Assembly (NCBI GenBank): GCA_020629635.1
Contig: JAHDCX010000002.1
Location: 95,726 to 159,725 of the forward strand
Origin: Acidimicrobiales bacterium
GTDB taxonomy: Bacteria; Actinomycetota; Acidimicrobiia; Acidimicrobiales; SHLQ01
Length of the DNA stretch: 64,000 bases
Direction: 5' to 3'
Part shown: piece after piece, positions 54,001-57,000 of the stretch
How positions within the stretch are numbered: the stretch's first letter is position 1
Layout: the number at the start of each line of letters is the position of its first letter
Position numbers: made by a program

Positions 54001-57000
54001 GCGCCGGCGCGATCTCGAACGCCCAACTTGGTGAAGATCGACGAGATGTGACTCTTCACGGTGGCGACGCCCACGAAGAGCTCGTCGGCGATCTCATGGT
54101 TCGACAGGCCCTTGGCCATCGCTCGCAAGACATCGTTCTCGCGGTCGGTGAGCTCGTCGATCCGGGCGACTGTCTTGGCCGAGGGCAATACGTGCGCCCG
54201 ATGATGTTCGAGTACTCGTGGGGTCACGGCGGGGTCGAGCCAGCTCCCTTCAGCGGCGACGGTCCGAACCGCACGGATCATGTCGTCGGCGGTGGCCTCC
54301 TTGAGGATGAACCCCGCGGCGCCGGCGTCGATCGCGCCCCACAGCACGTCGTCCTCGTCGAAGGTGGTGAGTACCAGGACTGGCGGTCCGTCGAGGTCCC
54401 GAATCCGGCGAGTTGCTTCGATGCCGTCCATTCCTCGCATGCGGATGTCCATGACCACAACGTCGATGTCGGTGTGTGCGTCGAGCCGGAGGAGCGCTTC
54501 GGCGCCATCGGAGGCGTGGGCGACCACCTCGAGATCGTCCTCGGAGGCGAGTATTCGCTCGAGTCCGACTCGGATGAGCTCTTGGTCGTCGACGAGAAGA
54601 ATGTCCGTCACGGTCGCGTCCCTCGGAGCAACGAATCGAGCGGCGAGCTGGTCGTGAGGGGCAGCGACGCCTCGACGCTCCAGCCGTTCGTCGTCGGACC
54701 GGCGAGCAGAGATCCGTTCACGGTCCGGGCGCGTTCGCGCATCGACCGGAGCCCGTAGCCGTCCCCGGAGGTGGCGTTGGTCGGTGTGCCGCCGCGGTTG
54801 ATCACCGACACCTCGCATCGAGTCGAATCCACCGACACCGTCACCGCGACGTCGGCGCCACGAACGTGTCGGCTGGCATTGGTGAGTGCCTCCTGGACGA
54901 TGCGATAGGCGGCGACGCCGACGGGACCATCGACATCGTGGTCGTCGCCGGTCATCGTGAGCTGCACGTCGAGCCCGGCGACGAGGAACTCGCCGACAAG
55001 CTCGGGGATGTCGGCCACCGTTGGCGATGGGAGTCCGGTCTCTTCGGGATCGCCGTCGGCACGGAGGAGACCGATCGTCTGACGGATCTCTCGCATCGAG
55101 TTGCGACCTGCTGCTTCGGCCTGCTCGAGCGCTCGTGCGGCCTCATCGGGGTCCTTGTCGATCAGGTGCCGCGCTCCGGTCACGTGCATCATCATCACGG
55201 CGAGCGAATGCCCGACCAGATCGTGGACATCGCGAGCGATTCGGCGACGCTCGTGAAGGATCGCCTGATCGGCGACGAGCTCACGGGCAGCAAGCATCTC
55301 GGTGACGGCGTCCTGATAGCGGTAGACGATGTCGCCGAAGACCCAGCCAAGCCCGATGCCGAGCAACCAGATCGGCCAGCTCACATCGAGGAGTGCGTCG
55401 GTGATGGCGAGGACCGGAAGGAGTACGAAGGTCAGGCCGACGGTGAAGGTGACTCGTCGGCGATTCGGTTCGGCTCCGGCGATCAGTGAGACCGTCAGGA
55501 CCACGATGAACAGCGAGATCTCGTCAGCGGATTCGACGATGTTGAGGGTGAGCGGCCCCGCGATCCCGAAGAAGTCGACGAGGAGTCGCGGTCCGTCGGC
55601 GATGGCCCACCACCAGAAGCAGGCGGTGATGACGCCGAGGATCGGCCAATCGACTTCGGGAGTGTCGCGGGTGGCGACCGCGGCCACCGCCACGATGGTG
55701 ACGCCGATGGCGAAGGTGAGCCGTTGCGCGCCCTCGTGGAACAGGAGTCGATGAGGGGTGGCCATTCGCTCACGGTACCGACCACGGCCATGGCGGTCAT
55801 CCGTCCAGGGAAGGAACCGGCGGCTACGACCAGGGGATGGTCCGCGCGGTCAGGGGCGCTCGGGGAACTGCGGACCTTCGGTACGAGTCCGCTTGAGCTC
55901 CCAGAATCCGTCCATCGTCGACATCGTCACCATGGCGTCCCAGAGTGCAAGCGAATCTTCCTCGGGCGGGATGCGGCTGATGACCGGCCCGAAGATGCCC
56001 TTCGGCCCAGAGTCGGTGTCGAAAGCAATGATGGGCGTGCCGACGTCGGTCCCGACGAGGTCGAGACCGATCTGCATGCGCTCCTCGATGATCGGGTCCC
56101 ACGAGTCGTCGTCGAACGCTCCGGCGTGGCTGGTGTCGAGGCCGGCGGCTTCGAGGAACTGCCCGGCGCCGCCAGCTGCGATGTCGTCGAACTCGAGGCC
56201 CTGGCTCTCGCGATCGTGGTGAATGACTGCGCCGTACTGCCAGTACAGCGCCTGAACGGCGTCGTTGCCTTCGGCCTTGCGCACCGACTCCTGCACCCGC
56301 AAGAGGTTGTGGGTGAACCGCGTTGGTGCGTAGAACGGCGAGTCCTCGGGCGGCTGGTTCTTGACCAGCAGGCTGATCGGCTCCCAGGTGATGTTCAGAT
56401 CACGGTGGGGTTTCACACTGTCGACGGCCCAACGAGCCGTCTGCCAGCACCACGGTCAAATGGGGTCGACCCAGAAGGAGATGTCCATGCATCGGACCCT
56501 ATCGTCCGCTGAGGATTGGTGAGCAGGTCGGGTACGTGGTTTCCACCATGCGGAAGCCGATAGTCGAGGTTTCCGTTGTGCGGTACCGTCGACCGAATGT
56601 CGGTTCAGAGCGTCGAGCGTGCCCTTCACCTCCTCGAGGCGATCGGTGAGGGTCCGTGCGGGGTGGTCGAGGCGTCGAGTCGCGTCGGCCTGCCTTTGTC
56701 GACGACCTCGCGTCTTCTCGCGGCGCTCGAGTCGCGTGACGCAGTCGTTCGCCGCGCAGATGGTCTTTGGGAGATCGGGGCCCTTGTGAACCGCCTGGCA
56801 GGTCTCGAATCGCCGAGTGTGGTGACCATTCAGGAGCTCGTTGCGCCGGCGCTCGCCGATTTGGTTGATTCGTTGGGTGAAGCGGCGGCGGTGTCGATCC
56901 CGATCGGGCACGAGACGCTCACGGTGATGCAGATCGATTCACCTCAGCCGGTGCGGGCCGAGGACTGGACCGGCCACCGGTGGCCGATCACGGGTGGAGG

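What the first reader, a model, noticed from the sequence alone, without database searches (positions are those of the whole stretch)
55850..56488. In-frame TGA exactly at the first Cys of the CPWC redox motif of an Rv2466c/DsbA-like reductase, followed by a SECIS-like hairpin: candidate UxxC selenoprotein or a fresh pseudogene
Seen in the sequence:
- On the minus strand, ATG(56488) GAC ATC TCC TTC TGG GTC GAC CCC ATT TGA CCG TGG TGC TGG reads MDISFWVDPI-stop-PWCW. The same frame continues into the 188-aa ORF 55850-56416.
- The stop therefore occupies the nucleophilic Cys position of a thioredoxin-fold CxxC motif. M. tuberculosis Rv2466c has FWFDPLCPWCW at the equivalent place, as I recall it.
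- Fourteen nt after the TGA, a GC-rich hairpin can form: GACGGC, loop UCGUUGG, GCCGUC.

Established knowledge: bacterial selenoproteins very often are thioredoxin-fold enzymes with Sec replacing the first Cys of CxxC. DsbA-like and other thiol-oxidoreductase selenoprotein families are known from comparative genomics (Zhang and Gladyshev). The bacterial SECIS is a hairpin directly downstream of the UGA with G/U in its apical loop.

Inference: this is either a selenocysteine-containing mycothiol/mycoredoxin-type reductase or a TGC-to-TGA nonsense mutation or sequencing error. The ORF track misses the link because it splits the gene at the TGA.
Basis: partly seen in the sequence, partly recalled or inferred. 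Interest (0 to 1): 0.72.

Follow-up and report, generated by a model that had tools for sequence, protein, structure and literature searches.

The report
Selenocysteine form of Rv2466c-like reductase
The in-frame TGA is a genuine selenocysteine codon in a thioredoxin-fold reductase gene of an Acidimicrobiales bacterium, backed by a conserved recoding hairpin, but this selenoprotein family was already catalogued in 2008 as "DsbA 2", so it is a correct yet largely ordinary find.

Summary
On the minus strand, ATG (56488) opens MDISFWVDPI-TGA-PWCW, and the frame runs to a TGA stop at 55850. The protein is an Rv2466c-like thioredoxin-fold reductase (Pfam PF22234; 37% identical to M. tuberculosis Rv2466c). 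The TGA aligns with the nucleophilic Cys19 of Rv2466c.

It is neither a pseudogene nor a sequencing error. Of 162 related loci, 154 carry TGA at this codon. Nearly all are from Acidimicrobiales/Acidimicrobiia MAGs, several with complete chromosomes. Seven loci carry Cys and one carries Arg.

The hairpin 14 nt downstream is an 8-bp stem with a GUU loop. It is kept in all 136 distinct Sec-type sequences, with compensatory changes at synonymous sites. Cys-type homologues lack this constraint. Codons upstream of the TGA evolve as coding sequence. TGA is otherwise the normal stop codon here, including for this gene.

The family is already known. Zhang and Gladyshev (2008) list it as selenoprotein family "DsbA 2", and a listed member is 56% identical. 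I found no source linking it to Rv2466c, and gene callers and NCBIfam still miss it.

Sec machinery could not be checked in this genome. It is reported in the sister order Actinomarinales. Novelty is low and interest is about 0.3.

The parts
55850..56488 (-). Complete selenoprotein coding sequence: 212 codons including Sec11, plus the TGA stop at 55852-55850. It encodes an Rv2466c-like thioredoxin-fold reductase.
   Evidence: Translation. Pfam PF22234, E=4.7e-32. PDB Rv2466c, E~1e-34 over residues 4-209. 56% identity to a GOS 'DsbA 2' member.
56486..56488 (-). Start codon ATG.
   Evidence: Protein conservation across homologues begins here. ATG or GTG occupies this position in 111 of 136 Sec-type sequences, and the codon before it is unconserved.
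56456..56458 (-). In-frame TGA, the selenocysteine codon (U11). It is equivalent to Cys19 of Rv2466c.
   Evidence: TGA at the same codon in 154 of 162 related loci.
56447..56458 (-). U-P-W-C redox motif (TGA CCG TGG TGC).
   Evidence: P, W, C and W are invariant in 136 Sec-type sequences, with synonymous variation in the Pro and Cys codons.
56423..56441 (-). SECIS hairpin: 5' arm 56441-56434 (GACGGCUC), loop 56433-56431 (GUU), 3' arm 56430-56423 (GGGCCGUC). It starts 14 nt after the UGA and lies within the codons for (Q)TARWAV.
   Evidence: Fold. 98.8% of cells paired, with 23 compensatory cells against 2.8 expected. Pair +21/+33 shows GC, CG, UA, AU and GU.
56033..56041 (-). Codons for G150-T151-P152. 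By analogy with other thioredoxin-fold proteins this is the cis-Pro loop that faces the redox motif.
   Evidence: G150, T151 and P152 are invariant in alignment A1. They align with the GTP of Rv2466c. The cis-Pro role is inferred from general thioredoxin-fold knowledge and was not tested.
55850..56416 (-). The truncated 188-aa ORF (GTG start) that automatic gene callers report instead of the real gene. It lacks the active site.
   Evidence: ORF list. The database entry P0001 starts at MKPHRDL. 49 of the best 120 homologues are truncated in the same way.

Best explanation
This is an intact selenoprotein gene.

How it is decoded (inferred from the E. coli fdhF mechanism): translation starts at ATG 56488. 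At UGA 56458-56456 the ribosome does not terminate. An RNA hairpin 14 nt downstream (an 8-bp stem with a G/U-containing apical loop) acts as a bacterial SECIS element. It recruits SelB-GTP carrying Sec-tRNA(Sec), which inserts selenocysteine. Translation then continues to the ordinary UGA stop at 55852-55850, which has no such hairpin.

What it makes: a 212-residue thioredoxin-fold reductase of the Rv2466c-like family (Pfam PF22234, GOS selenoprotein family 'DsbA 2'). Its redox centre is U11-P-W-C14 in place of the C19-P-W-C22 of M. tuberculosis Rv2466c.

What it probably does (by analogy): Sec11 is the attacking nucleophile. It cycles through a selenenylsulfide with Cys14 or a mixed Se-S bond with a low-molecular-weight thiol, probably mycothiol. 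The enzyme would act as a thiol-dependent reductase in oxidative or electrophile stress defence.

Shown here: the recoded UGA, the conserved and covarying hairpin, family membership, and the Sec/Cys homologue pairs.

Inferred: the involvement of SelB, SelA, SelD and tRNA-Sec in this particular genome, the chemistry, and the identity of the thiol partner.
For: 1. The sequence is as described.
2. Family: PF22234, E=4.7e-32. Rv2466c structures 4ZIL/4NXI/5XUR match at E~1e-34, with 37% identity and U aligned to Cys19.
3. Two independent large contigs (3.08 Mb and 5.39 Mb) have DPI-TGA-CCG-TGG-TGC at the same place.
4. Across 162 loci, TGA occurs 154 times, TGC or TGT 7 times and CGC once.
5. Hairpin, in 136 distinct Sec sequences: each of the 8 pairs forms in at least 129. 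The pair of two synonymous third positions (+21/+33) is GC 103, CG 11, UA 8, GU 7, AU 4, UG 1 and mismatched 2. 98.8% of cells are paired, against 16-61% for slid controls. 23 cells show double changes against 2.8 expected, and 0 of 500 shuffles reach the observed values.
6. Cys forms lack the constraint. The +21/+33 pair forms in 4 of 10 (Fisher p=4.6e-7). MFE is -8.8 against -13.3 kcal/mol.
7. The loop Arg codon is CGT in 126 of 136, against 14% background use, which keeps G-U in the loop.
8. Codons -9 to -1 evolve as coding sequence, with entropy of 0.46, 0.17 and 1.18 by codon position.
9. TGA is the stop codon of 37 of 42 window genes, including this one, so the codon is not reassigned genome-wide.
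10. GOS 2008 lists this family as selenoprotein 'DsbA 2' (UxxC; 18 Sec sequences, 235 Cys homologues). The listed read JCVI_READ_1027441 is 56% identical, E=1e-85.
11. Full Sec machinery is reported in 84 of 84 genomes of Actinomarinales, the sister order in the same class.
Against: - No selA, selB, selD or tRNA-Sec was found in the 64-kb window or in 1.36 Mb of flanking DNA from related loci.
- The hairpin is not thermodynamically exceptional against shuffled sequence (z = -0.28).
- Six of the eight pairs are largely dictated by the conserved peptide T-A-R-W-V/A-V. Independent RNA-level evidence therefore rests mainly on two wobble-wobble pairs and the loop codon.
- There is no match to any Rfam family.
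- There are no expression or protein data.
- The mycothiol link is indirect: only a report of a mycothiol-dependent formaldehyde dehydrogenase in marine Acidimicrobiales.
Confidence: 0.92

Rival explanations
1. Fresh pseudogene or sequencing error: a recent TGC-to-TGA change inactivated an ordinary Cys-type Rv2466c-like gene.
For: A single base separates TGA from TGC. Cys-type homologues are common, at 71 of the best 120 database hits.
Against: TGA is at the same codon in 154 of 162 loci from many distinct MAGs and metagenomes, at 55-93% protein identity. The frame is intact on both sides and evolves as coding sequence. A hairpin specific to Sec forms is conserved with covariation.
Confidence: 0.01
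2. The gene-caller model is right. The UGA terminates a conserved 10-residue leader peptide, the hairpin is a regulatory element, and the real product is the N-terminally truncated protein starting downstream (GTG 56416 here, ATG or GTG of M/V-TARW in relatives).
For: Most relatives have an ATG or GTG right after PWCW, and databases hold 49 such truncated models among the best 120 hits.
Against: - The segment P-W-C-W between the TGA and that start is invariant at the protein level, in frame, with synonymous variation.
- In this window the codon after PWCW is CAG, not a start. The first start (GTG 56416) would delete the conserved TARWAVD helix.
- A truncated product would lack the whole CxxC active site that defines the fold.
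- Cys-type homologues are full length and colinear.
Confidence: 0.02
3. The UGA is read through, but not as selenocysteine. A near-cognate or suppressor tRNA would insert Cys, Trp or Arg, stimulated by the hairpin and the UGA-C context, without SelB.
For: The Sec machinery is not demonstrated for this genome. The UGA is always followed by C. From my own recollection, UGA-C is a weak termination context; this was not checked in any source here. The base before the UGA is U or A in 132 of 136 sequences, which suggests context tuning.
Against: - The position is the catalytic Cys, with Cys in the homologues. That is the classic Sec/Cys pair signature.
- The family passed the published selenoprotein criteria.
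- The sister order has the full machinery.
- Leaky read-through would yield mostly a truncated 10-mer, an unlikely state to keep across a whole order.
Confidence: 0.04

Closest known systems
GOS selenoprotein family 'DsbA 2' (Zhang and Gladyshev 2008, PLoS Genet 4:e1000095; PMC2398784, Table 2 and Dataset S1)
   Same: It is the same family. Listed members read (V/M)xxxFWVDPIUPWCWVTARWVVD...WQPISL...GFWELKRTR...P. Read JCVI_READ_1027441 is 56% identical over the full length (E=1e-85), with U at the same position. The UxxC motif is the same, as is the weak pfam01323 match (e-value >0.001 there; 24 bits against a 25.6 cut-off here).
   Different: The 2008 entry rests on 18 short marine reads with no organism or function assigned. 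Here the gene sits in a 66%-GC Acidimicrobiales contig. I show that the Sec form occurs across Acidimicrobiales/Acidimicrobiia MAGs, quantify the SECIS covariation, and identify the family with Pfam PF22234/Rv2466c.
Mycobacterium tuberculosis Rv2466c (thioredoxin-like, mycothiol-dependent reductase / nitroreductase; PDB 4ZIL, 4NXI, 5XUR)
   Same: Colinear over about 206 residues, 37% identity, E=2e-40. It shares the FW-DP-x-[C/U]-PWCW motif, the GTP loop and the C-terminal ELKRTRTE-PQF signature. It is the founding member of Pfam PF22234.
   Different: Rv2466c has Cys19 where this protein has Sec. The two come from different classes (Actinomycetes and Acidimicrobiia). Its mycothiol dependence and prodrug activation are experimental facts for Rv2466c, as I recall them from the literature, and are untested for this protein.
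Sargasso Sea 'DsbA-like' selenoproteins = GOS 'DsbA 1' (Zhang, Fomenko and Gladyshev 2005; PMC1088965), FrnE/COG2761 type
   Same: Thioredoxin-fold DsbA superfamily. Sec replaces the first Cys, in the same local motif U-P-W-C. A SECIS hairpin lies directly downstream.
   Different: It is a different family. Seven Sargasso members hit Pfam PF01323 at E=1e-13 to 1e-30, and none hits PF22234. The window protein hits PF22234 at 4.7e-32 and falls below the PF01323 cut-off. The sequences are not recognisably similar outside the motif.
Escherichia coli fdhF SECIS / SelB recoding system
   Same: Works alike, by inference: an in-frame UGA, a hairpin within the coding sequence immediately downstream, an apical loop with conserved G and U, and position-specific recoding while other UGAs terminate.
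   Different: There is no primary-sequence similarity. Here the UGA is not part of a lower stem, the loop is GUU/CGUUG, and the codon before the UGA shows a strong U/A bias. Binding to SelB is untested.

Membership tests
GOS selenoprotein family 'DsbA 2' | Significant full-length similarity to listed members | tested here: met
   56% identity, E=1e-85, 212 against 205 aa, to JCVI_READ_1027441 from Dataset S1.
GOS selenoprotein family 'DsbA 2' | In-frame TGA at the first position of a UxxC motif, aligned with Cys in homologues | tested here: met
   U-P-W-C at 56458-56447. Cys occupies that column in 71 full-length homologues and in Rv2466c.
Rv2466c-like (Pfam PF22234) | Score above Pfam's gathering threshold over the whole domain | tested here: met
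   112 bits against a cut-off of 27. Residues 10-200 match profile positions 1-180 of 180.
Rv2466c-like (Pfam PF22234) | Mycothiol-dependent reductase or nitroreductase activity | not testable with these tools
   This is a biochemical property. The only support is indirect: mycothiol-dependent formaldehyde dehydrogenase genes reported in marine Acidimicrobiales (PMC4337565).
Bacterial selenoprotein gene (Sec decoding) | Stem-loop immediately downstream of the UGA with a small apical loop containing G (bacterial SECIS description, PMC1088965) | tested here: met
   The stem starts 14 nt after the UGA, with 8 bp and a GUU loop. G is at the first loop position in 135 of 136 sequences. MFE is -13.3 +/- 1.4 kcal/mol.
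Bacterial selenoprotein gene (Sec decoding) | The structure is conserved by selection on RNA, not only by the peptide it encodes | tested here: met
   There are compensatory changes at two wobble-wobble pairs: 23 cells against 2.8 expected, with 0 of 500 shuffles reaching this. Cys forms pair at +21/+33 in only 4 of 10, p=4.6e-7.
Bacterial selenoprotein gene (Sec decoding) | selA, selB, selD and tRNA-Sec present in the same genome | not testable with these tools
   They are absent from the 64-kb window and from 1.36 Mb of flanks. Reported for sister order Actinomarinales.
Bacterial selenoprotein gene (Sec decoding) | UGA otherwise functions as a stop codon (recoding, not reassignment) | tested here: met
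   37 of 42 GC3-selected genes in the window end in TGA, including this gene.
Sargasso 'DsbA-like' / GOS 'DsbA 1' (FrnE, COG2761, PF01323) | Significant match to PF01323 over the whole domain | tested here: not met
   The window protein scores 24 bits, below the 25.6 cut-off, and only over residues 3-54. Sargasso members score 50-106 bits over the full domain.

The most novel reading that the evidence does not exclude
Three linked possibilities remain open.

1. In Acidimicrobiales the Sec form is the prevailing version of the Rv2466c-type reductase. It would then be a selenium-dependent arm of the mycothiol (or another low-molecular-weight thiol) redox system, a link not made in the selenoprotein sources I checked.
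2. The near-absolute U/A preference at the base before the UGA, and the fixed CGU Arg codon in the loop, reflect lineage-specific rules of SelB/ribosome recognition.
3. Because gene callers cut the gene, the active-site-bearing N-terminus is missing from many database entries.
Probability: 0.35. Interest if true: 0.45.

Novelty: new member of a known kind. Interest (0 to 1): 0.3.

Why it matters
- **Annotation.** Automatic gene calling truncates this gene to 188 aa and removes its catalytic centre. The same happens to 49 of the 120 closest database homologues. NCBIfam has no model that would rescue it. Metabolic reconstructions of abundant aquatic Acidimicrobiales therefore miss a redox enzyme, and miss the fact that these organisms need selenium.
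- **Function.** Identifying the anonymous 2008 family "DsbA 2" with Rv2466c gives it a concrete, testable biochemical hypothesis. Rv2466c is a structurally and enzymatically characterised mycothiol-dependent reductase. The natural Sec/Cys pair could be used to measure what selenium adds to that chemistry.
- **Limits.** None of this overturns current understanding. UxxC thioredoxin-fold selenoproteins are the commonest kind.

Tried and rejected
1. **Sec machinery.**
   - ARAGORN found no tRNA in the window and no tRNA-Sec in all 163 sequences held, 1.36 Mb in total.
   - tblastn with E. coli SelA, SelB and SelD, recalled from memory and used only as probes, gave just two SelB-like hits, in L011 and L016. 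On translation these are EF-Tu ([27 protein letters not shown]), so they were rejected.
   - I saw no way to reach an Acidimicrobiales SelA, SelB or SelD through the remaining capped searches, so I did not spend them.
2. **Rfam.** There were no hits at gathering thresholds. A permissive scan around the gene gave only chance-level hits, with E between 2 and 6.
3. **Promoter and terminator scan, 55500-57200.** Nothing was found.
4. **Other selenoprotein genes in the window.** A screen for TGA-interrupted frames with a coding-like GC3 signal on both sides gave 8 hits. None has a redox motif, and most lie antisense to real genes. All were rejected.
5. **The 2005 Sargasso 'DsbA-like' family.** I first suspected it was the same family. 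Pfam shows it is not. The right match is GOS 'DsbA 2'.
6. **rpoB/rpoC guess.** I guessed that the 1147-aa and 1346-aa ORFs were rpoB and rpoC. Pfam shows Ig-domain/beta-propeller proteins instead.
7. **Source contig.** A look-up of the window's own contig through P0001 found it is not on record.
8. **Extended lower stem.** A consensus fold of -33 to +90 shows no conserved lower stem involving the UGA.
9. **Not run.** Structure prediction, because the sequence match to solved Rv2466c structures (E~1e-34) already settles the fold.
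Full report
**Observation.** The minus strand of the window reads ATG (56488-56486) GAC ATC TCC TTC TGG GTC GAC CCC ATT TGA (56458-56456) CCG TGG TGC TGG. This translates as MDISFWVDPI*PWCW. The same frame stays open to a TGA stop at 55852-55850. The mechanical ORF list splits this into a 188-aa ORF (55850-56416, GTG start) and an upstream in-frame ORF that ends at the TGA. ViennaRNA extends it to eight pairs, GACGGCUC (56441-56434) with GGGCCGUC (56430-56423), around a GUU loop, at -13.3 kcal/mol. The 81-nt region as a whole is no more stable than shuffled sequence (z = -0.28). 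Stability alone therefore proves nothing in this 66%-GC DNA.

**What the protein is.** With Cys substituted for the stop, the 212-residue product matches Pfam PF22234 (Rv2466c-like) at E=4.7e-32 over the whole profile. It falls just below the cut-off for PF01323 (DSBA). It aligns colinearly with the solved structures of M. tuberculosis Rv2466c (4ZIL, 4NXI, 5XUR; E about 1e-34; 37% identity).

**Is the TGA real and conserved?**
- Of the 120 best database homologues, 49 are 188-205 aa long and start at (M/V)T(A/S)RW, the first start codon after PWCW. The window's own model starts further downstream. The other 71 are full length with CP(W/F)CW.
- I fetched the DNA of two truncated ones, from a 3.08-Mb contig and a 5.39-Mb chromosome. 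Both read ...GAC CCC AT(T/A) TGA CCG TGG TGC TGG ATG....
- Scans of species-representative genomes and of metagenomes, using an alignment of the truncated forms, returned 160 loci. This query is biased towards Sec forms.
- Together with the two loci already fetched, the codon at this position is TGA in 154 loci, TGC or TGT in 7, and CGC in 1.
- Nearly all genome hits are MAGs labelled Acidimicrobiales, Acidimicrobiia, Aldehydirespiratoraceae, Ilumatobacteraceae or Microthrix. Over a dozen are complete or near-complete chromosomes. The nearest relative (L003, MAG-156) is 93% identical and also has TGA.
- There are 136 distinct nucleotide versions of the TGA region. The pattern therefore cannot come from one erroneous sequence being copied.
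- A fresh nonsense mutation or a sequencing error is excluded.

**Is it translated through?**
- The nine codons between the start and the TGA show the signature of coding sequence. Mean column entropy is 0.46, 0.17 and 1.18 bits at codon positions 1, 2 and 3. W, D and P are invariant while their third positions vary.
- P, W, C and W after the TGA are invariant, again with synonymous variation.
- In this window the codon after PWCW is CAG, so the usual rescue start of the gene callers does not even exist here.
- TGA is the ordinary stop codon in this genome, in 37 of 42 GC3-selected genes. It also terminates this very gene.
- The recoding is therefore position-specific, not a change of genetic code.

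**The hairpin.** In the 136 distinct Sec-type sequences, each of the eight pairs forms in at least 129.
- Six pairs are largely fixed by the conserved peptide T-A-R-W-(V/A)-V, so they say little on their own.
- Two pairs join synonymous third positions, and these carry the information. Pair +21/+33 (Thr wobble with Val/Ala wobble) is G-C 103, C-G 11, U-A 8, G-U 7, A-U 4, U-G 1 and mismatched 2. Pair +18/+36 is G-C 135 and A-U 1.
- On the alignment, 98.8% of cells are paired, against 16-61% when the partner is slid by 1-3 columns. 23 cells carry changes on both sides against 2.8 expected, and 0 of 500 shuffles reach the observed values.
- In ten distinct non-Sec sequences (nine Cys, one Arg) the same wobble pair forms in only 4, about the chance level (Fisher p=4.6e-7). 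The hairpin MFE is scattered from -2.2 to -14.9 kcal/mol (mean -8.8), against -13.3 +/- 1.4 in the Sec forms.
- The Arg codon that supplies the loop is CGT in 126 of 136 Sec forms. The remainder are mostly AGG or CGG, which also keep a G-U step. CGT is only 14% of Arg codons in the window and occurs in 3 of the 10 non-Sec sequences (p=7.9e-6).
- The geometry fits the published description of bacterial SECIS elements (PMC1088965): an apical loop 22 nt after the UGA, a small loop, and G at the first loop position in 135 of 136.
- A consensus fold of -33 to +90 shows only this hairpin.

**Mechanism.**
- Shown: a conserved in-frame UGA at a catalytic Cys position; Cys-containing homologues; a conserved, covarying downstream hairpin specific to the UGA forms; and normal use of UGA as a stop elsewhere.
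- Inferred from the established E. coli fdhF/SelB mechanism: the hairpin binds SelB-GTP carrying Sec-tRNA(Sec) and delivers selenocysteine to the UGA.
- Inferred from Rv2466c, whose mycothiol-dependent reductase and nitroreductase activity I cite from my own knowledge of the literature, not from a tool result: Sec11 is the nucleophile and Cys14 the resolving residue. The partner thiol is unknown. Mycothiol is plausible, because a mycothiol-dependent formaldehyde dehydrogenase is reported in marine Acidimicrobiales (PMC4337565).

**Sec machinery.** This is the one refutation test I could not run.
- The window has no tRNA.
- No selA, selB or selD is detectable by tblastn, and nothing Sec-related appears among about 40 annotated genes.
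- The 1.36 Mb of flanks from related loci also have none. Two SelB-like hits there turned out to be EF-Tu.
- The rest of the genome is out of reach.
- A 2026 preprint reports selA, selB, selC and selD in all 84 complete genomes of Actinomarinales, the sister order in the same class. Sec decoding therefore exists in Acidimicrobiia.

**Comparison with what is known.**
- A 'DsbA-like' UxxC selenoprotein family was described from the Sargasso Sea in 2005 (PMC1088965). I retrieved its sequences. They share U-P-W-C but are FrnE/COG2761-type proteins. They hit PF01323 at 1e-13 to 1e-30 and never hit PF22234, so they are a different family.
- The GOS survey (Zhang and Gladyshev 2008, PMC2398784) lists three DsbA groups. 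'DsbA 2' is described as pfam01323 with e-value >0.001, UxxC, 18 selenoproteins in 10 samples, and 235 Cys homologues.
- Dataset S1 of that paper shows DsbA 2 members reading VDIEFWVDPIUPWCWVTARWVVDGV...GFWELKRTRKEGPDFGERP. One is 56% identical to the window protein over its full length (E=1e-85). This is the same family.
- The family is therefore already a recognised selenoprotein family.
- I did not find any link to Rv2466c. No paper in the library holds both 'Rv2466c' and 'selenocysteine'. The 2026 review's family table lists only PF01323 DsbA-like forms and has no PF22234 entry. NCBIfam has no model that matches this protein.

**Evolution.** On a rough neighbour-joining tree of 219 distinct family members, Sec and Cys forms interleave, with at least 14 state changes. 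Some Cys forms are 80-86% identical to their nearest Sec form. Three Cys forms (L009, L164, L166) and the Arg variant L084 still have a well-formed stem. Some of these could be recent Sec-to-Cys conversions. This matches the dynamic Sec/Cys exchange described for bacterial selenoproteins (PMC1794560, title and abstract as listed).

**Verdict.** The pseudogene or error reading is rejected. The gene is a new member of a known selenoprotein family, so novelty is low. The useful by-products are these:
- the equation of GOS 'DsbA 2' with the Rv2466c-like family;
- a quantified SECIS element;
- evidence that the Sec form is widespread in Acidimicrobiales;
- a demonstration of systematic mis-annotation;
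- an unexplained strong U/A bias at the base before the UGA.

Interest is 0.3.

Noticed in passing
window 56459 (the base before the TGA); same position in loci L001-L162: The codon before the Sec codon ends in U or A in 132 of 136 Sec-type sequences (ATT 82, ATA 30, CTT 9, GCT 9). Yet ATC is 90% of Ile codons in the window's genes. Among non-Sec forms only 4 of 10 end in U or A (Fisher p=3e-6). This suggests selection on the 5' context of the UGA. No explanation was established, and no conserved pairing partner was found.
   Followed up: partly
window 56980-58836 (+): The gene divergent from the selenoprotein gene encodes an MttB-superfamily (trimethylamine methyltransferase-like) protein, PF06253 at E=2.5e-202. 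The reading frame is uninterrupted with no in-frame TAG, so it appears to be a non-pyrrolysine member. The first ~116 residues of the ORF lie outside the domain, so the true start may be further downstream.
   Followed up: no
window 41131-41676 (+): A 181-aa ORF combines an N-terminal glutaredoxin domain (residues 3-59) with a C-terminal GNAT acetyltransferase domain (Acetyltransf_CG). This is an unusual redox-acetyltransferase fusion.
   Followed up: no
window 9206-10390 (-): A 394-aa ORF carries a peptide deformylase domain (residues 30-179) followed by a SAM-methyltransferase domain (residues 249-339). It is either a real fusion or two genes merged by my longest-ORF selection.
   Followed up: no
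window 28068-35574 (-): Two adjacent very large ORFs (1346 and 1147 aa) encode bacterial Ig-like (Big_7, Big_13) and DUF5122 beta-propeller repeats. They are probably cell-surface proteins, not rpoB/rpoC as their sizes first suggested.
   Followed up: partly
L084 926-928 (metagenome contig Ga0224512_10088177; protein P0014): One homologue has CGC (Arg) at the Sec/Cys position (DPA-R-PWCW), while the downstream stem is intact at -13.4 kcal/mol. It is either an inactive variant, a sequencing error, or a protein with changed chemistry.
   Followed up: no
L012 and L058 (both MAG P01_B01_bin.81, JBCCIC01 contigs 3 and 11): One MAG carries two different Sec-type paralogues of this gene, DPL-U-PWCWMTSRW and DPI-U-PWCWVTARW.
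   Followed up: no
loci L001-L162, flanks: ARAGORN finds 26 tRNA-Arg genes in the fetched flanks and only 3 tRNAs of other kinds. This suggests a recurrent tRNA-Arg neighbour of this gene in many Acidimicrobiales. The window itself has no tRNA.
   Followed up: no
L027 (CAXMSE010000039.1) and L042 (JBLIMK010000040.1): Two bins labelled Gammaproteobacteria and Verrucomicrobiales carry a Sec-type gene 63-65% identical to the window protein. The likeliest causes are mis-binned or mislabelled Acidimicrobiia contigs. Lateral transfer is not excluded.
   Followed up: no
window 53541-53936 (+) and 54608-55765 (-): A PIN-domain protein (a likely toxin of a toxin-antitoxin pair) lies nearby. A HisKA_3 histidine kinase starts 85 nt downstream of the selenoprotein gene on the same strand. 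Co-transcription was not examined.
   Followed up: no
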